From: Candidatus Bathyarchaeota archaeon
GTDB lineage: Archaea; Thermoproteota; Bathyarchaeia; RBG-16-48-13; JAGTRE01
Direction: 5' to 3'
DNA: 64,000 nt
Assembly: GCA_018396415.1 (NCBI GenBank)
Contig: JAGTRE010000002.1
Span: 96,824 to 160,823, forward strand
Positions 28,371-57,001 of this stretch are shown one piece after another. Below the pieces are notes generated by a model. That model did not search any database and had not been told where the DNA came from. It saw only the letters and a list, made by a program, of their open reading frames with translations. A program made the position numbers and the translations under genes. The first letter of the stretch is position 1, and each line of letters starts with the position of its first letter.

Positions 28371-31300
28371 TTAAGAGCTAACTGGAGGTTTTGATAATTT
28401 TTCCTCGGTTTTTCCTTCGATTTTTTGAGGGGGAGACATATAAATGTCTATTGCCCCTGTTCCAACCGGCACCATTTGCCCGACTATAATGTTCTCGGCA
28501 ACACCTTTCAGCGGATCCGTCGCCCCTTCAGCAGCGGCTTGAATGAGATTTGGAACAGTAATTTCAAAGGCAGCCTTAGCCAGAACACTTGCCTTTTCAC
28601 CGCTCACTCCGTGTCGACCAATTTGCCGAACCTCTCCGGTACAAGTCATTGCATCGGCAACAAGCATCACATGCCGAATATCTACGTCAAGCCCTTGTTC
28701 TTCTAAAACGCTTAAAGCTTCTTTAATAATGGCATTGCGAGCGGCTTCGATTCCGAGAGTTTCAGCAATTTCGTGAATATGGTTAGTAGTTGTTCGAGTT
28801 GGGTCTACGCCTGGAACTTTGAGGACCCGCTGAAGGTTTGACCCGTCTGTATGGATTACCCACTCGCCATGTTCTTCGGTAACAAGCACCCTATGGATTC
28901 CCGGTATTCCTTTAACGTGAATTGCTGAGATTTTGTCACTAAGTTTACGAATATCGATGGCTACTATCTCTTTTGGTGTAATTGTGATTGTATCGCGTTC
29001 AATTTGAACATCACAATTTGGAATATGAAGAATGGCTCGAAGATCGTTAACAGCAACGCCGCGATCCCTCATCATAGCTCGATCCAGCATGACAACAACA
29101 GCCCCTAACTTCGGGTCAATATATATGGATTGGGCAAGGTCTTCCAAAGTAGTGAAGATAATTTGCTGGGCTACCTCCGTGGCTTTCTCCCGGCTTACCC
29201 TATGTTTTTTGTCTAGGTAGATATTCATAATCGGAGTTGAAGGAGTTCGTCGCGCATCGACAATTTCGATGAGACGTGGAAGACCAAGAGTGACATCCCT
29301 CTCTTTAACTCCAGCGTAGTGAAATGTCCTTAAGGTCATTTGTGTACCAGGCTCTCCAATTGATTGCGCTGCAATAATTCCAACAGCTTCGCCGGGTTCA
29401 ACGAGGGCGCGCTTATAATTCTCTACAGCCAACGAAAGAACGGTATCAACCGCTTCCCTATTTAACTTCGCACTGAGTATAGTTTTGCGTAACTCTTTCA
29501 CTAATAATGGAGTTAATTGATCAGCAATTTCGTTTAATCGCTTTTCTACGTATTCTGCAGATGCAGCTCTTCCACCTTCCATGGAAATTCGTATTCGCTC
29601 AACGAGACGGTCAACGTTTACCGCCTTTCCATGATCACTCTTCGCTGGATCGACACCGTCTTCTCCGTAGCGGAATTGGATAATATCACCCCTTGAGTCC
29701 CTGACGGTCCCATCATACTCAACACGTAGATACTCTAAGGCATTAATTAATCGTCTTTGCATGTATCCGCTTTGTTGAGTGCGTACTGCGGTATCAACGA
29801 GTCCTTCACGCCCGCCCATAGCATGGAAAAAGAATTCAATAGGATTCAGCCCATCTCGGTAAGATGAAACTACGAAACCCCTCGCCCCCGGGCTGGGATC
29901 CCCAACAGGGAAATGCGATAACGCTCTATCACGATATCCTCGAATAATTCTTTTTCCACGTACAGATTGTTGCCCAACGCAGGCAGTCATTTGGCTGATA
30001 TTCAAGGTTGACCCTCGAGCTCCGGTCCGAGTCATTATAATTCCCTGATTGTCCATTCCGAAAAAGGAGTCAGCAGCTTCCCCTGCCTTATCCCGAGCAT
30101 TTGCCAACTCATTCATGATATAAATTTCTAGCGACTCTTCAATGGTTTGACCTGGAAGACGTGGAAGAGTTCCTTTTCGATAAGCTTCAATTAATCCCTG
30201 AACACGCTCTTGCGTAGCTTGAATAACACGGTTTATTTTATGCTGCGTTTCTTTGGAAAGGTCGAGTTCATCAAGGCTATACGTGAAGCCACGCATCGAC
30301 ATGAACGCGTTTACAAGTTTGCAGATTGACCTGAGAAACGATTGACCTGCACTGGTCCCATAATCCTTGACAATTCGATGGTATAGGCTTTCAGATCTCT
30401 CTGCCCCAATAGAATTTTTGTCAATTACTCCACATTCGAGTATTCCATCTCTGATAACGACATACGCATCATATGGACACTTCTCTTTTAGACAGTTAGC
30501 ACATTGTCGGCAGGTATTCGCTTTGAGGACATAATTGAAACCCTTTGGCAGGAAAAGACTGAAAACCTGTTTTCCAGTCCAACGTGGCGAGGGTTTCTTT
30601 ATAAATGGCTTGGGCAGTTGACCCTCGTAGCCCGCGGCTGTAACAAGCCTAGAAACCTCATCCTTCGTGAGGAGAGTCGTATTGTTAGTAAGTAAATATG
30701 CAGCGGTGATAAAATCTCTGATCGCTCCGATGATTGGTCCCCCATATCTTGGAGAGAGGATTTGATCTTGAACTTGCATCAAGAGGCGGGCTTCAGCCTG
30801 TGCTTCCTCGCTTTGGGGAATATGAAGGTTCATCTCATCCCCATCAAAATCTGCGTTATAAGGCGGGCAGACACAGAGATGAAGTCTAAAAGTCTTGTAG
30901 GGAAGAACTTTAACATAGTGAGCCATGATTGACATTCGATGCAAAGATGGCTGTCGATTAAAAATCGCAATATCTCCATCCCGAAGATGCCGTTCAACGA
31001 TAAAGCCTGGTTGAAGAGATTCTGCGACTTTTTCCCTTTCTGCAACAAATTCAAGACGAATTCGCTTCCCATCTGGTCGAACTACATATAAAGCTCCCGG
31101 ATAGTTTTGAGGGCCGGCGATAACTAGTTGCTTCATCTGGTCTAAATTCCATTGAGTAACTTTCTCGGGCACTGTCAAACGCATTGCAACGTCAATTGGG
31201 ACGCCGACCTCGTTTATATCGAGGTTCGGGTCAGGAGAAATCACTGTTCTAGCGGAGAAATCAACTCTCTTCCCTGATAAATTACTCCGAAATCTACCTT

Positions 31301-32234
31301 CCTTTCCCTTAAGGCGCTGAGAAAGAGTCTTTAACGCCCTACCGGACCGGTGCCTGGCTGGAGGAATTCCAGATGCTTCATTGTCAAAGTATGTCGTTAC
31401 ATGATATTGAAGCAACTCAGATAGGTCTTGAATGATTAGAGTTGGTGCACCGGCATCAATATTCTCCTTTAACCGTTGATTAATTCGAATTATGTCAACA
31501 AGTTTATGAGTTAAATCGTCTTCAGACCGAATTCCCGATTCGAGAGTAATTGATGGTCTTACATATACAGGTGGAACAGGAAGAACTTGAAGGATCATCC
31601 ATTCAGGACGAGCGACCGTTGGATCAAATCCAACTAAGCGTAGATCATCGTCGATAATTCGCTCAAGCCGCTCTCGAATCATACTAGGAGTTAGCCTACG
31701 AGCCCCGCCATCCTCTAAAACCTCATAAAAAGTAGTAGGTTTGCTGAATTCCACTACATATTGCCCAGCACCGCAATGCGGACATTCTGAACACTTCTTT
31801 GCTTCACGAATAACTTGCTCGTATAAAACCTCTGGAACAGAGCCTAATTGGGCCTTAATCTCTTCAATCCGTAAGCGAAATTCATTAATTTTTGCATCGG
31901 TTAGGAGAATTCGACCACAATTTCGACATGTTGCAGTAAGAAGCGCATAAATAAGTTTGGCAAAGCCAACATGAACAACTGGCACAGCCAATTCGATATG
32001 ACCGAAATGCCCGGGGCAGCGGGCGGCAGTATTTCCACAGGTTTTGCATCGTTGCCTCGGCTCCAATGTTCCAAGGCGCCCATCCATCAATCCAGAGGTA
32101 ATTGGAGCCCCATCTTCATCATAGGTGTCCGCAGTCTGAACCTCTACCACAGAAAGTTTTCGGATATCGTTTGGTGAAAAAATTCCAAACTTAATAGCAT
32201 CTATGACTTTGTAAAGCTCAGCCTCCATCGCCAT
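28371..32234 (-). CDS. rpoA: DNA-directed RNA polymerase subunit A as a single 1287-aa polypeptide (A' and A'' portions contiguous, no intervening stop)
   Basis: N-terminus carries A' zinc-binding region ([20 protein letters not shown]); [10 protein letters not shown] active site; residues about 880 onward are a typical A'' ([29 protein letters not shown] trigger-loop region) ending with the A'' C-terminus. Confidence 0.9.
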   Translation of the reverse strand: [1287 protein letters not shown]

Positions 32235-36090: not shown

Positions 36091-36235
36091 TGGCGGGCCC
36101 GGCGGGAATTGAACCCGCGACCCATCCCCAGGGAGAGGTGAATCATCATCCCTTCCGGGTGTCCTCCGAGCTCGGATAAAAGCCTCACCGAGAGATTTTC
36201 TCCCCGGTGCTCTATCCTAGCTGAGCTACGGGCCC
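36091..36235 (-). tRNA. Intron-containing tRNA (about 70-nt intervening sequence); anticodon not resolved
   Basis: Minus-strand RNA: GGGCCCG-TA-GCTC-AGCTAGGATA-GAGC ... GCGGG-TTCAATT-CCCGC-CGGGCCC-G-CCA. Acceptor, D-arm and T-arm are canonical and CCA is encoded. The anticodon region is interrupted by about 70 nt containing hairpins; exon junctions could not be fixed by eye. Confidence 0.6.
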
Positions 36236-37470: not shown

Positions 37471-37563
37471 GGGCCCGTGGCCTAGTTGGATAAGGCGTCG
37501 GCCTTCGGACATTTCGATTTGGAAGAGAGCCGGAGATCGAGGGTTCAAATCCCTCCGGGCCCG
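37471..37563 (+). tRNA. tRNA-Arg (anticodon TCG) with a 19-nt intron at the canonical 37/38 position
   Basis: GGGCCCG-TG-GCC-TAGTTGGATAA-GGC-G-TCGGC-CTTCGG[ACATTTCGATTTGGAAGAG]A-GCCGG-AGATC-GAGGG-TTCAAAT-CCCTC-CGGGCCC-G; CCA not encoded. Confidence 0.75.
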
Positions 37564-40242: not shown

Positions 40243-40779
40243 GTGTTAACGTTGGCTCTACAAATCGAGGCGATTTATGTTGAAGGAAAACTAATCGTTT
40301 CCTCATCGGAAGCAGTTTCATCTCTAGAGCAAAGAGGCTATGGCACAAAGGAAGAAAAAACGGGTTTAATTCTTTCACCCACTGAAGCCCTCTACTTACT
40401 TGGTGACAAGAAACTCCGTGTAGTTGACAAAGATAGTGGCATTGAACAAGATTTTCCAACGCTCCTTGGAAAAATACGTACAATTGATCCTGAAATTTGG
40501 ATAAGATATCTGATTTACAGAGATCTTAGAGATCGAGGTTACGTTGTCCGCGAAGGCTTTGGTCTCGGAGTTGACTTCCGAGTATACGAACGGGGGCAAT
40601 ACGGGGAAGAAGCAGCCAAATACATTGTATTTGGGATTTCAGAAGGGACTCCAATTCCTGTTGGGAAAATTGTTGAACTCCTAAGATACGTCCAAAGTTT
40701 GAAACGTGAACTCGTACTCGCAGTTATCGACCGACGGGGAGAGATTGTGTATTACTCTGTCTCACAATTGACATTCTAG
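40243..40779 (+). CDS. endA: tRNA-splicing endonuclease EndA (short, about 178-aa form)
   Basis: Catalytic-domain block RDLRDRGYVVREGFGLGVDFRVYERG with conserved Tyr/His/Lys context. Confidence 0.85.
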   Translation: MLTLALQIEAIYVEGKLIVSSSEAVSSLEQRGYGTKEEKTGLILSPTEALYLLGDKKLRVVDKDSGIEQDFPTLLGKIRTIDPEIWIRYLIYRDLRDRGYVVREGFGLGVDFRVYERGQYGEEAAKYIVFGISEGTPIPVGKIVELLRYVQSLKRELVLAVIDRRGEIVYYSVSQLTF

Positions 40780-42189: not shown

Positions 42190-42299
42190 TGGCGGGCCTG
42201 ACGGGATTTGAACCCGCGACCTACAGCTTTCCCCAGAGGCTATAGGAGGCTCGGCTGATCTGGTCATCTGCCGCGCTGTCCAAACTGCGCCACAGGCCC
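42190..42299 (-). tRNA. Intron-containing tRNA (about 32-34 nt extra); anticodon not resolved, intron probably non-canonical
   Basis: Minus-strand RNA GGGCCTG-TG-GCGC-AGTTTGGACA-GCGC-G-...-AGGTC-GCGGG-TTCAAAT-CCCGT-CAGGCCC-G-CCA. Intervening region contains hairpin GGCAGAT-GACCAG-ATCAGCC; no U33-containing loop is found at a canonical position. Confidence 0.55.
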
Positions 42300-50451: not shown

Positions 50452-50545
50452 TGGTGGACCGGGCGGGATTCGAACCCGCGACCCCTTGGTCTTTTGAGAA
50501 AGCCCATGCAAACCAAGTGCTCATACCGAGCTGAGCTACCGGCCC
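50452..50545 (-). tRNA. tRNA-Ala (anticodon TGC) with a 16-nt intron at/near 37/38; G3-U70 present
   Basis: Minus-strand RNA GGGCCGG-TA-GCTC-AGCTCGGTAT-GAGC-A-CTTGG-TTTGCA[TGGGCTTTCTCAAAAG]A-CCAAG-GGGTC-GCGGG-TTCGAAT-CCCGC-CCGGTCC-A-CCA. Confidence 0.85.
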
Positions 50546-55290: not shown

Positions 55291-56069
55291 TTGCGGAGCT
55301 TCAATTATTTTTCTGATGAATATAATCATGTAACAAAAGTGCATCCTTGCTTTAGCCACGCATGTCATGCTAAGTACGCCCGAATACATATTCCCGTTGC
55401 ACCAAGGTGTAATATCCAATGTAACTATTGTGAAAGAGGCCTAAATACCTACGTACAGAAGCCTGGATTCGCCTCTAAAATTCTAACTCCCTTTGATGCG
55501 CTTAAAGCCGTTGAAAGAGCAGTAGAAGATAAAGACAAATACGAGTTGTCAGTAGTGGGAGTTGCGGGTCCAGGAGATGCGCTAGCCAACGAAGAAACGA
55601 TTGCGGAGTTAAAGCTATTACGGTTACGGTAAATGCGGTAGACCCGATTATCGCGTCACGGATCTACGAGTACATAATTTTTAATGGTGAAAAACGAGCT
55701 GGAATCGATGCTGCTCAAATTCTTATTTCAAATCAGCTTAAAGGGATAGAATTGTCATCAAAGTTTGGACTTTGTGTGAAAGTTAACACGGTTCTGATAC
55801 CGGATGTGAATAATAGGCATGTGGTAAAAGTTGCTGAAACAGTTGCCATGCATGGGGCTTTTATCATGAATGTTATCCCGCTGATACCTGGATATAAGTT
55901 TAGGCAACTAAAACCCCCTACTCATGAGGAGATAAAAAATACTCGTAAATTATGTAGTAAATACATAATCCAATTTAACGATTGTAAACTTTGTAGAGCT
56001 GATGCTTACGGAATACCTGGTTTAGAGACAAAATTTAGTAAAGACCAACTGAAGTGTTGCAGCATATAA
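55291..56069 (+). pseudogene. nifB-like radical SAM gene disrupted by an internal deletion of about 100 nt plus frameshift
   Basis: Frame 1 (55291-55632) encodes the NifB N-terminus (HPCFSHACHAKYARIHIPVAPRCNIQCNYC...GPGDALAN) and stops at 55632. Frame 0 is open from 55533 and from 55617 encodes ITVTVNAVDP...GLCVKVNTVLIPDVNN...IPLIPG (NifB middle and C-terminal blocks) to 56069. The PDLKLCLSTNG segment expected between them is absent. Confidence 0.5.
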
Positions 56070-56407: not shown

Positions 56408-56744
56408 GACGGGTATACGAATATTCCCGATGTCATAATTTGCATATCACTATACATTGGGTGCCCGCGAAGTGATTTAGGGCTTATAAGAAACAAAAAG
56501 TTTGACAACAATTCCATTCTGCTAAAGATGTGGCAATTACCTGAAAACCTAGATTTCCTAATAGGAAAAATATAACTGAACAGCTGATGCACTTAGACGG
56601 TCTAGGGCATTAATTAAAAGCCAGACGAAAAGGACTTGTTACTTAGGCAAACTCAATATCAATAAGTACTTCTCAGTTATGCCAAAAAGGTTAGGAAAAT
56701 GCTTAATAGGTTCAATTTTTGCTTTAAAACTCGGATATCGTATT

Positions 56745-56886
56745 AGCGGGGTGGGGTAGCAAGAGAGGACAATGAAGTCCCTCTTGCCGAACCAGGTTTA
56801 ATGAGTACTTGTAGTGAACAAGCCTCGAATTCCCCGCAGGGCTCATAACCCTGAGATCGGTGGTTCAAATCCACCCCCCGCTACCA
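56745..56886 (+). tRNA. Initiator tRNA-Met (anticodon CAT) with about 62 nt of intervening sequence inside the D-loop (non-canonical)
   Basis: A1-U72 (AGCGGGG.../...CCCCGCT-A-CCA); anticodon arm CAGGG-CTCATAA-CCCTG with three G-C pairs (initiator hallmark); T-arm GGTGG-TTCAAAT-CCACC. D-stem GGGG/CCCC encloses TAGC + about 62 extra nt with hairpins AAGAGAGGA/TCCCTCTT and CTTG-TAGTGAA-CAAG. Confidence 0.7.
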
Positions 56887-57001
56887 TCCTTCGCATACTG
56901 TTCTAAAGAAAATTTCAGCTAATCTTCAATAGGTGAAGAAGATTAAAGCTGACAACGCCATTGGTCATGATAGGCTAGCGGCCGCCTAAAAGTAGAAACC
57001 G

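What the first reader, a model, noticed from the sequence alone, without database searches (positions are those of the whole stretch)
56745..56886. Initiator tRNA-Met with about 62 nt inserted in the D-loop
Acceptor (A1-U72), GGG/CCC anticodon stem, CAT anticodon and T-arm are all intact and contiguous. The D-stem GGGG/CCCC encloses TAGC plus about 62 extra nucleotides forming two hairpins. This implies one or two introns in the D-loop, a rare location.
Basis: seen in the sequence. Interest (0 to 1): 0.6.

Follow-up and report, generated by a model that had tools for sequence, protein, structure and literature searches.

The report
Twice-interrupted archaeal initiator tRNA gene
This is the initiator methionine tRNA gene of a hot-spring Bathyarchaeia archaeon, interrupted in its D-arm by two short introns of the ordinary archaeal protein-spliced kind; it is a real feature, but an example of a phenomenon already well described in related archaea.

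Summary
Window 56745-56886 (+) has every hallmark of an archaeal initiator tRNA: A1:U72, acceptor AGCGGGG/CCCCGCU, three G:C pairs in the anticodon stem, a CAU anticodon, an intact T-arm and an encoded CCA. About 62 extra bases sit in the D-arm.

The extra bases are two separate introns, not one. [quoted passage not shown]
- Intron 2 is 56802-56832 (31 nt, position 22/23).
- Intron 1 is either 56760-56791 (32 nt, relaxed motif, normal 11-nt D-loop, my preferred reading) or 56761-56790 (30 nt, perfect motif, odd 13-nt D-loop).

Splicing in silico gives a tRNA-Met that matches intronless Bathyarchaeia genes except for one extra U and one compensated T-stem pair. Five further distinct sequences at syntenic loci carry the same two introns. 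Across the six sequences, 17 of 64 intron columns vary against 1 of 76 exon columns.

All five tRNA genes in the window are interrupted (nine introns). The window also encodes a splicing-endonuclease subunit with no catalytic histidine, which implies a heteromeric enzyme. D-arm introns and multi-intron tRNAs are already documented, so this is a new member of a known kind.

The parts
56693..56735 (+). Conserved upstream block with two TATA-like boxes (GCTTAATA at 56701-56708, CTTTAAAA at 56722-56729). Probable archaeal BRE/TATA promoter; the roughly 10-nt leader downstream of it is variable.
   Evidence: Nearly invariant in all five orthologous loci, while sequence further upstream and the leader diverge. 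Its role as a promoter is inferred from position and composition only.
56745..56886 (+). Whole interrupted initiator tRNA-Met(CAU) gene, including the encoded CCA (56884-56886).
   Evidence: Sequence; partial Rfam tRNA hit at 29.2 bits; spliced product called tRNA-Met(cat) by ARAGORN; matches archaeal initiator tRNA genes.
56745..56759 (+). Exon 1 (tRNA positions 1-15: acceptor 5' strand, U8, G9, D-stem 5' strand GGGU, A14, G15). It ends at 56760 if the strict register applies.
   Evidence: BHB scan; invariant in six distinct sequences; identical to the intronless L018.
56760..56791 (+). Intron 1, preferred register B (32 nt, position 15/16). Bulges AGC and AAC, central helix of 3 bp plus one outer mismatch, intron-side helix of 5+4 bp. 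The strict register A is 56761-56790 (30 nt, position 16/17): perfect 4-bp helix GGUA/UGCC, bulges GCA and GAA, outer helix 3 bp.
   Evidence: Both registers found by script. Register B gives an 11-nt D-loop and a clean ARAGORN call; register A gives a 13-nt D-loop and a mis-registered call. Intron columns are variable in relatives.
56792..56801 (+). Micro-exon 2, CCAGGTTTAA (D-loop C16 to A21 plus A22). It starts at 56791 if the strict register applies.
   Evidence: Invariant in six distinct sequences although flanked by variable intron positions. Matches the D-loop CCAGGTTAA of intronless L018 and CCAGGTCTA of L031.
56802..56832 (+). Intron 2 (31 nt, position 22/23). Central helix GUUU/GAAU, bulges AAU and UCC, intron-side helix of 3+5 bp, outer helix of only 1 bp (relaxed, HBh'-like).
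   Evidence: BHB scan. The junction ...TTTAA|CCCG... restores the D-stem GGGU/ACCC. Helix pairs survive through U-A to U-G and G-U to G-C changes in relatives.
56833..56886 (+). Exon 3: D-stem 3' strand CCC, G26, anticodon arm (anticodon CAT at 56844-56846), variable loop, T-arm, acceptor 3' strand, A73, CCA.
   Evidence: Sequence; Rfam alignment; found in other archaeal initiator tRNA genes by a pattern built on this exon.
40243..40779 (+). tRNA splicing endonuclease (EndA) family subunit, 178 aa, with no histidine. Probable structural (beta-like) subunit of the enzyme that would excise these introns.
   Evidence: Pfam PF01974 and PF02778; TIGR00324 at 87.8 bits. In alignments to 1a79 and 2cv8 the catalytic His aligns with Ala and the catalytic Lys with Arg. 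The translated protein has no His at all.

Best explanation
This is the functional initiator tRNA-Met gene of a Candidatus Bathyarchaeia archaeon, and its D-arm is interrupted by two short archaeal BHB introns.

Proposed mechanism (inferred; no splicing data are available):
1. The gene is transcribed from a conserved TATA-like promoter as a precursor of about 150 nt.
2. In the precursor the D-arm cannot form. Instead, two adjacent arms fold side by side between the acceptor and anticodon stems, spanning gene positions 8-50 and 51-90. Each arm presents a bulge-helix-bulge motif.
3. The archaeal splicing endonuclease cuts after the second nucleotide of each 3-nt bulge, releasing introns of about 32 and 31 nt.
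4. An RtcB-type ligase joins exon 1, the 10-nt micro-exon and exon 3.
5. The D-stem GGGU/ACCC and an 11-nt D-loop AGCCAGGUUUA can then form, giving a 76-nt tRNA plus CCA.

I prefer the relaxed register for intron 1 (56760-56791) because it yields a normal D-loop. The strict register (56761-56790) would leave two extra nucleotides.
For: Shown here:
- All initiator identity features are present.
- Both inserts carry BHB motifs at positions that leave a D-loop-like micro-exon.
- The cut rule was validated on the window's canonical introns and on L032, where it reproduces the intronless sequence exactly. It is also stated in PMC4307357.
- The spliced product is called tRNA-Met(cat) over [1,79] by ARAGORN. 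It differs from intronless L018 only by one extra U in the D-loop and a compensated 49:65 pair.
- Five further distinct sequences at orthologous loci carry the same two introns. Four of these loci (L021, L025, L028, L033) were checked by tblastn and are syntenic, with neighbouring proteins 70-89% identical.
- 17 of 64 intron columns vary against 1 of 76 exon columns (Fisher p = 5e-6).
- 99% of cells keep the proposed pairs, against at most 56% when partners are slid.
- The upstream TATA-like block is conserved.
- All five tRNA genes in the window are interrupted, and all splice in silico to clean tRNAs.
- The window encodes an EndA-family subunit lacking the catalytic His, which implies a heteromeric endonuclease. 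That type is the one reported to cut relaxed and non-canonical introns (PMC6379350, PMC7714728).

For register B of intron 1:
- Closest relatives have 10-11 nt D-loops (L018 and L031).
- The same '3 bp plus outer mismatch' motif is the only one available in the 7/8 intron of L022 and L034, and there it gives a canonical product.
- The same choice restores a 5-nt variable loop in the window's tRNA-Lys.
Against: - No RNA data exist, so splicing and the exact junctions are inferred.
- Neither BHB arm is in the minimum-free-energy fold. The two-BHB structure scores -45.7 kcal/mol (register A) or -41.7 kcal/mol (register B) against an MFE of -57.2 kcal/mol.
- Covariation support is weak. The six sequences are close relatives, with only one double-sided change, and the shuffle control is not exceeded.
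- Intron 2 has an outer helix of only 1 bp.
- For intron 1 the structurally perfect motif is register A, not the one I prefer.
- Only 64 kb of the genome was visible, so a second, uninterrupted initiator gene cannot be excluded.
- The catalytic endonuclease subunit and the ligase were not seen.
Confidence: 0.85

Rival explanations
1. The gene and mechanism are the same, but intron 1 is cut at the strict BHB (56761-56790, 30 nt, position 16/17). The mature initiator tRNA then keeps two extra nucleotides and has a 13-nt D-loop, AGCACCAGGUUUA.
For: Register A is a textbook hBHBh' motif: a 4-bp central helix, two 3-nt bulges, an outer helix of 3 bp and an inner helix of 4+4 bp. It is 4 kcal/mol more stable than register B. 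All of its pairs are invariant in the relatives.
Against: - All 29 other initiator genes retrieved whose product could be read (intronless, or spliced by homology) have 10-11 nt D-loops.
- ARAGORN cannot register the 13-nt product properly and calls it over [6,81].
- Alternative registers one nucleotide apart are common in this genome. Where they can be judged (tRNA-Lys introns 1 and 3, iMet intron 2), the register that restores a canonical tRNA is not always the best-paired one.
Confidence: 0.3
2. This is a disabled or decaying copy (a pseudogene) of the initiator tRNA that has picked up insertions. The working gene lies elsewhere in the genome.
For: ARAGORN does not call it and Rfam scores only the 3' part, just at threshold. 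Only 64 kb of a contig of at least 492 kb was examined.
Against: - Exons are invariant and introns variable across six distinct sequences; the four comparison loci checked for gene order are syntenic.
- BHB pairing is maintained through wobble changes.
- The promoter-like block is conserved.
- The spliced product is a perfect initiator tRNA.
- Every other tRNA gene in the window is also interrupted, so interruption is the norm here.
- From general knowledge, not checked here: archaeal genomes usually carry a single initiator tRNA gene.
Confidence: 0.06
3. There is one long intron: the whole 72 nt between 56758 and 56829 is removed at a single BHB formed by UGGG/CUCG, leaving GGGGU|UUCCCC with no normal D-loop.
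For: The BHB scan finds such a motif, with an inner helix of 2 bp and an outer helix of 4 bp.
Against: The product lacks A14, G18, G19 and A21. The invariant block CCAGGTTTAA in the middle of the insert matches the D-loop of intronless relatives almost base for base, which a single intron would not explain.
Confidence: 0.02
4. The insert is not removed. The tRNA functions with an expanded D-arm carrying two extra hairpins closed by GGGG/CCCC.
For: At 70 C the minimum-free-energy fold is a cloverleaf whose D-stem GGGG/CCCC encloses the two hairpins.
Against: - The insert evolves like a spacer (17 of 64 columns vary) while the tRNA body is frozen.
- The closing C (56832) is a T in the five related sequences that carry the two introns.
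- From general knowledge: no expanded D-arm of this kind is known in cytoplasmic tRNAs.
- BHB motifs sit exactly where excision restores a normal tRNA.
Confidence: 0.02

Closest known systems
Multi-intron tRNA genes with non-canonical BHB introns in Thermoproteales and other Crenarchaeota (Sugahara et al. 2007/2008, Marck & Grosjean 2003, as summarised in PMC4090602, PMC4033280, PMC3218864)
   Same: Short (14-35 nt) protein-spliced introns bounded by strict or relaxed bulge-helix-bulge motifs. Two or three occur per gene, at positions outside 37/38, including 22/23. Most tRNA genes of a genome can be affected. The host belongs to the TACK group, which has a heteromeric endonuclease.
   Different: The host is a Bathyarchaeia MAG, a lineage for which I found no description of tRNA introns in the searchable literature. 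Both introns sit in the D-arm of the initiator tRNA, only 10 nt apart. No sequence similarity between introns was seen, in contrast to the intron transposition reported for Thermoproteales.
Experimentally verified D-loop/D-arm introns: Aeropyrum pernix pre-tRNA-Thr2(UGU) (PMC3241643), Sulfolobus tokodaii tRNA-Glu (PMC4307357), Methanopyrus kandleri tRNA-Glu at 20b/21 (PMC5829648)
   Same: A BHB or HBh' motif lies inside the D-arm and is cut by the splicing endonuclease alone, between the second and third bulge nucleotides. The (alpha-beta)2 enzyme is needed for efficient cutting at this location.
   Different: Those genes have a single D-arm intron, in elongator tRNAs. Here two tandem BHB arms replace the whole D-arm of the initiator. 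Cleavage has not been tested here.
Disrupted initiator tRNA genes: split iMet of Nanoarchaeum equitans (37/38) and permuted iMet of Thermofilum pendens (59/60, plus a 37/38 intron) (PMC3218864)
   Same: The essential, usually single-copy initiator tRNA gene is not exempt from BHB-dependent disruption.
   Different: Here the exons are colinear and contiguous in one transcript, neither split nor permuted, and the anticodon loop is intact.

Membership tests
Archaeal BHB (splicing-endonuclease-dependent) tRNA intron | Two 3-nt bulges on opposite strands, separated by a 4-bp helix, with splice sites after the second bulge nucleotide | tested here: met
   Intron 1 register A: GGUA/UGCC with bulges GCA and GAA. 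Intron 2: GUUU/GAAU with bulges AAU and UCC. The preferred register B of intron 1 has 3 bp plus one outer mismatch, which is a relaxed form.
Archaeal BHB (splicing-endonuclease-dependent) tRNA intron | Flanking helices h (exon side) and h' (intron side) of at least 2 bp, as required for the strict hBHBh' form | tested here: inconclusive
   Intron 1: h = 3 bp (register A) or 2 bp (register B), h' = 4-5 bp plus 4 bp; the requirement is met. Intron 2: h' = 3+5 bp but h = 1 bp only, so it is the relaxed HBh' type.
Archaeal BHB (splicing-endonuclease-dependent) tRNA intron | Excision restores a canonical cloverleaf tRNA | tested here: met
   ARAGORN calls tRNA-Met(cat) over [1,79] on the spliced sequence. 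The product equals intronless L018 apart from one U and a compensated pair. With register A the D-loop would be 13 nt.
Archaeal BHB (splicing-endonuclease-dependent) tRNA intron | The host encodes the splicing endonuclease, of the broad-specificity heteromeric type for non-canonical positions | tested here: inconclusive
   An EndA-family subunit without the catalytic His or Lys lies at 40243-40779, which implies a heteromer. The catalytic subunit and its specificity loop are outside the window.
Archaeal BHB (splicing-endonuclease-dependent) tRNA intron | The intron is actually removed in vivo or in vitro | not testable with these tools
   No RNA-seq or biochemical data are available.
Archaeal initiator tRNA-Met | A1:U72 pair, CAU anticodon, three consecutive G:C pairs (29-31:39-41) in the anticodon stem | tested here: met
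   Read directly from the sequence. Acceptor, anticodon arm and T-loop match 33 other archaeal initiator genes retrieved.
tRNA pseudogene | Loss of constraint: substitutions in stems, no conserved promoter, not conserved among relatives | tested here: not met
   1 of 76 exon columns varies against 17 of 64 intron columns. The upstream block is conserved. The four comparison loci checked keep the same gene order.
Split or permuted tRNA gene | Exons encoded at separate loci or in rearranged order | tested here: not met
   The three exons are colinear within 142 nt.
Self-splicing group I / group II intron | A ribozyme core of hundreds of nucleotides that matches Rfam models | tested here: not met
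   The inserts are 30-32 nt, and no Rfam hit other than tRNA appears in 56600-57000 at E up to 10, apart from one chance match of 14 bits.

The most novel reading that the evidence does not exclude
The endonuclease uses the perfect BHB of intron 1, so this Bathyarchaeia clade makes an initiator tRNA with a conserved 13-nt D-loop (two extra nucleotides between C16 and G18). By the same logic its tRNA-Lys(UUU) would have a 7-nt variable loop. That would mean intron gain left permanent 'scars' that enlarge the tRNA core in an essential tRNA. A weaker add-on is that the two tandem BHB arms, which prevent D-arm folding until both are removed, make the supply of initiator tRNA depend on endonuclease activity and so act as a maturation checkpoint.
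Probability: 0.25. Interest if true: 0.45.

Novelty: new member of a known kind. Interest (0 to 1): 0.3.

Why it matters
- It extends intron-rich, multiply interrupted tRNA genes to Bathyarchaeia. Here that includes the essential initiator tRNA.
- Standard tRNA finders fail on this genome. ARAGORN missed this gene and mis-typed two of the other four, so tRNA complements of such MAGs will be under-reported unless BHB-aware tools are used.
- Among iMet genes sharing the same 3' half (mostly unnamed metagenome contigs), about five different intron sites occur in the 5' third of the gene. This is a compact natural data set on intron gain and loss.
- The one-nucleotide register ambiguity is a concrete test case for how relaxed motifs are measured by the endonuclease.
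- None of this changes current understanding of tRNA splicing.

Tried and rejected
- **ARAGORN on the window** found no tRNA at this site. On the unspliced gene with intron search it gave nonsense (tRNA-Lys with a 51-nt intron).
- **Rfam** aligned only model positions 7-64, so neither tool defines the introns.
- **Thermodynamic folding** at 37 C and 70 C does not show the BHB arms. It prefers a continuous hairpin GCAAGAG-A-GGAC/GUCC-CUCUUGC and, at 70 C, a GGGG/CCCC closing stem. I therefore relied on motif geometry and comparative data.
- **A single 72-nt intron** (56758-56829) was considered and rejected because the product has no D-loop.
- **Covariation statistics** on five sequences were uninformative: one double-sided change, and shuffles reach the observed value 284 times out of 500.
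- **More divergent two-intron orthologues** were sought through the neighbouring 200-aa protein and its homologues. This returned only the same narrow clade (L036-L039 are the same sequence as L028; L042 is new). Synteny is lost at 56% identity or below.
- **Intron transposition** was tested by comparing all nine introns of the window; no similarity was found.
- **Taxonomy from paper supplements** was not available. Lineage was taken from NCBI protein names and the accession range in PMC11770067.
- **BHB motifs for the iMet insertions in L031 and L015** could not be defined with my simple scanner.
- The single genome-collection scan and the single metagenome-collection scan were both spent on 3'-exon patterns. 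Introns in the 3' half of iMet genes could therefore not be sampled.

Full report
**Source and context.** The window is part of contig JAWCKP010000001.1 of assembly GCA_038851825.1. NCBI names its proteins as from Candidatus Bathyarchaeota/Bathyarchaeia archaeon. The accession falls within the range of the Tengchong geothermal-spring archaeal MAG set (PMC11770067). The surrounding genes are ordinary archaeal core genes: RNA polymerase A and B, EF-1alpha, ribosomal proteins S7 and S12, HisRS and an IF-2B family protein. The finding lies in a 594-nt gap between two minus-strand ORFs.

**The observation.** Bases 56745-56886 contain the following elements:
- the acceptor stem AGCGGGG/CCCCGCU with A1:U72;
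- U8, G9 and GGGU;
- then AGC and about 62 extra bases;
- then CCC, G26 and the anticodon arm CAGGG-CUCAUAA-CCCUG (three G:C pairs next to the loop, anticodon CAU at 56844-56846);
- AGAUC, the T-arm GGUGG-UUCAAAU-CCACC, A73 and an encoded CCA.

ARAGORN does not report the gene. Rfam's tRNA model aligns only the 3' two-thirds, at 29.2 bits.

The identity is nevertheless beyond doubt. A pattern built on the 3' exon retrieved 18 genome contigs and 15 metagenome contigs, 31 of which carry an AGCGGGG...CCCCGCUA archaeal initiator tRNA gene; the two others, on contigs labelled bacterial (L008, L019), lack the A1 start. One of these, an intronless Bathyarchaeia gene (L018), is identical to the window over the first 16 nt and almost all of the last 54 nt.

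**What the insert is.** I scanned for the archaeal bulge-helix-bulge geometry: a 4-bp helix flanked by two 3-nt bulges, with cuts after the second bulge nucleotide. I checked this rule in three ways:
- It is stated in PMC4307357.
- It reproduces the canonical 37/38 introns of the window's tRNA-Arg(UCG) and tRNA-Ala(UGC).
- In the iMet gene of L032 it gives a product identical to intronless L018.

Two motifs stand out.
- Intron 2 is 56802-56832 (31 nt). It has helix GUUU/GAAU, bulges AAU and UCC, and an inner helix of 3+5 bp. Its junction ...GGUUUAA|CCCG... puts A22 next to C23 and so restores the D-stem GGGU/ACCC. The outer helix is only 1 bp, which makes this the relaxed HBh' type.
- Intron 1 has two registers one nucleotide apart.
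  - Register A (56761-56790, 30 nt) is a perfect hBHBh' motif. It has helix GGUA/UGCC, bulges GCA and GAA, an outer helix of 3 bp and an inner helix of 4+4 bp.
  - Register B (56760-56791, 32 nt) has bulges AGC and AAC and a central helix of 3 bp plus an outer G-G mismatch (G-A in the relatives).

Between the two introns lies a micro-exon, (A)CCAGGTTTAA. It corresponds to the D-loop CCAGGTTAA of L018 and CCAGGTCTA of L031.

**Choosing the register of intron 1.** Register A leaves a 13-nt D-loop (AGCACCAGGUUUA), and ARAGORN then mis-registers the product over [6,81]. Register B leaves 11 nt (AGCCAGGUUUA) and gives a clean tRNA-Met over [1,79]. Several observations favour register B:
- All 29 other initiator genes whose product could be read have 10-11 nt D-loops.
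- The '3 bp plus outer mismatch' motif is the only one available for the 7/8 intron in L022 and L034. There it yields the canonical AGCGGGG|UAGGG.
- In the window's tRNA-Lys(UUU), the fully paired register of the third intron would give a 7-nt variable loop. The relaxed register gives GGGUC, the same loop as the window's tRNA-Ala.

Register A is 4 kcal/mol more stable and is geometrically ideal. I therefore put roughly 65-70% on register B and regard the question as open.

**Comparative evidence.** Loci L021, L025, L028 and L033 are syntenic with the window. The shared gene order is DUF2099, radical SAM, a small ORF, the tRNA, a 200-aa protein, a deacetylase and an aminotransferase, with 70-89% protein identity. 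All four carry the same two-intron gene. A search through homologues of the neighbouring 200-aa protein added L036-L039 (the same sequence as L028) and one new variant, L042.

Among the six distinct sequences, 17 of 64 intron columns vary against 1 of 76 exon columns (Fisher p = 5e-6). The single exon change turns G49:C65 into G49:U65. The proposed pairs hold in 99.1% of cells, against 39-56% when partners are slid. Changes in the helices are wobble-compatible (G-C/G-U, U-A/U-G), and there is one C-G to U-A exchange. With so few, closely related sequences this does not amount to statistical proof of covariation.

A 43-nt upstream block with two TATA-like boxes is nearly invariant, while the leader and more distal sequence diverge. 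That fits an expressed gene.

**How it most likely works.** In the precursor the D-stem's 5' strand is sequestered in the BHB of intron 1 (gene positions 8-50), and the D-loop's 3' part is sequestered in the BHB of intron 2 (positions 51-90). Two BHB arms therefore stand where the D-arm will be. The splicing endonuclease removes both introns, a ligase joins the three exons, and only then can the D-arm and the D/T-loop elbow form. These steps are inferred from the established mechanism (PMC3241643, PMC6379350), not shown here.

One supporting observation comes from the window itself. Bases 40243-40779 encode a 178-aa EndA-family protein (PF01974 plus PF02778; TIGR00324). It contains no histidine at all. 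In alignments to M. jannaschii 1a79 and S. tokodaii 2cv8, Ala aligns with the catalytic His and Arg with the catalytic Lys. It is therefore probably a structural subunit, which implies a heteromeric enzyme. That is the type reported to handle relaxed motifs and non-canonical positions (PMC7714728, PMC6379350).

**Genome habit.** All five tRNA genes in the window are interrupted:
- Lys(UUU) has three introns (30/31, 37/38, 43/44).
- Arg(CCU) has two (30/31, 37/38).
- Ala(UGC) has one.
- Arg(UCG) has one.
- iMet has two.

All splice in silico to tRNAs that ARAGORN accepts. The nine introns share no sequence similarity. Among iMet genes sharing the same 3' half (most from unnamed metagenome contigs), some are intronless. 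Others carry an insertion at 7/8 (L022, L026, L034, and near there in L031), at 19/20 (L032) or around 20/21 (L015).

**Comparison with what is known.** Non-canonical and multiple BHB introns are well described in Crenarchaeota, especially Thermoproteales (PMC4090602, PMC4033280, PMC3218864).
- Position 22/23 is listed explicitly.
- D-loop and D-arm introns have been verified biochemically.
- Initiator tRNA genes are known to be split or permuted in other archaea.

I found no account of this in Bathyarchaeia in the searchable literature, and none of an initiator gene with two D-arm introns. These are differences of host and position, not of kind.

**Verdict.** This is a new member of a known kind. 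The only unusual possibility left open is a conserved 13-nt D-loop if the strict register is used. Interest is modest.

Noticed in passing
window 36094-36235 (-): tRNA-Lys(UUU) with three predicted introns: 36184-36203 (20 nt, 30/31), 36161-36176 (16 nt, 37/38) and 36124-36154 (31 nt, 43/44). The third intron contains GAUGAUGA, which resembles a C-box, but has no D-box. It shows the same two-register ambiguity as iMet intron 1 (variable loop of 7 or 5 nt).
   Followed up: partly
window 42193-42299 (-): tRNA-Arg(CCU) with two introns: 42250-42267 (18 nt, in the anticodon stem at 30/31) and 42229-42242 (14 nt, 37/38). ARAGORN did not report this gene at all.
   Followed up: partly
window 50455-50545 (-) and 37471-37563 (+): ARAGORN labels 50452-50545 as tRNA-Pro(tgg). 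With the BHB intron 50491-50506 removed it is tRNA-Ala(UGC) with the G3:U70 identity pair. The gene ARAGORN calls 'tRNA-???' at 37471 is tRNA-Arg(UCG) with a 19-nt canonical intron (37509-37527). Every tRNA gene in the window is interrupted.
   Followed up: yes
window 40243-40779 (+): A splicing-endonuclease family protein (178 aa) passes the TIGR00324 endA cutoff but contains no histidine. Ala aligns with the catalytic His and Arg with the catalytic Lys. It is probably a structural subunit, which automatic annotation would name as the lyase. It lies between a HycI-like protease gene and HisRS, 1.4 kb from tRNA-Arg(CCU).
   Followed up: partly
window 55291-56069 (+): A NifB-like radical-SAM gene (CNIQCNYC motif) is broken by a frameshift near 55600-55640 into two ORFs (55291-55632 and 55752-56069). 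In the orthologous loci L021 and L033 the two parts are in one frame. This is an assembly error or a recent pseudogene. The gene table for the source contig lists a 292-aa product here.
   Followed up: partly
window 56693-56735 (+): There are two tandem TATA-like boxes 21 nt apart (GCTTAATA and CTTTAAAA), both invariant in five orthologous loci. Only the first is at a plausible distance for a transcript starting about 12 nt before the tRNA. The reason the second is conserved is unexplained.
   Followed up: no
L022 517-622, L026 6735-6840, L034 2080-2186, L031 13752-13864 (-), L032 1215-1324, L015 3387-3497 (-): Initiator tRNA genes sharing the same 3' half, mostly from unnamed metagenome contigs, carry single insertions at other sites: after G7 (31-32 nt; 37 nt in L031), at 19/20 (35 nt) and around 20/21 (36 nt). 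Others are intronless (L018, L023, L024, L027, L029, L030, L035). I could not define BHB motifs for L031 and L015.
   Followed up: partly
window 28371-32234 (-): RNA polymerase subunit A is encoded as one 1287-aa ORF containing Rpb1 domains 1-5, rather than as the split A'/A'' pair typical of most archaea. From memory, unsplit rpoA is known in some TACK lineages; I did not check this.
   Followed up: no
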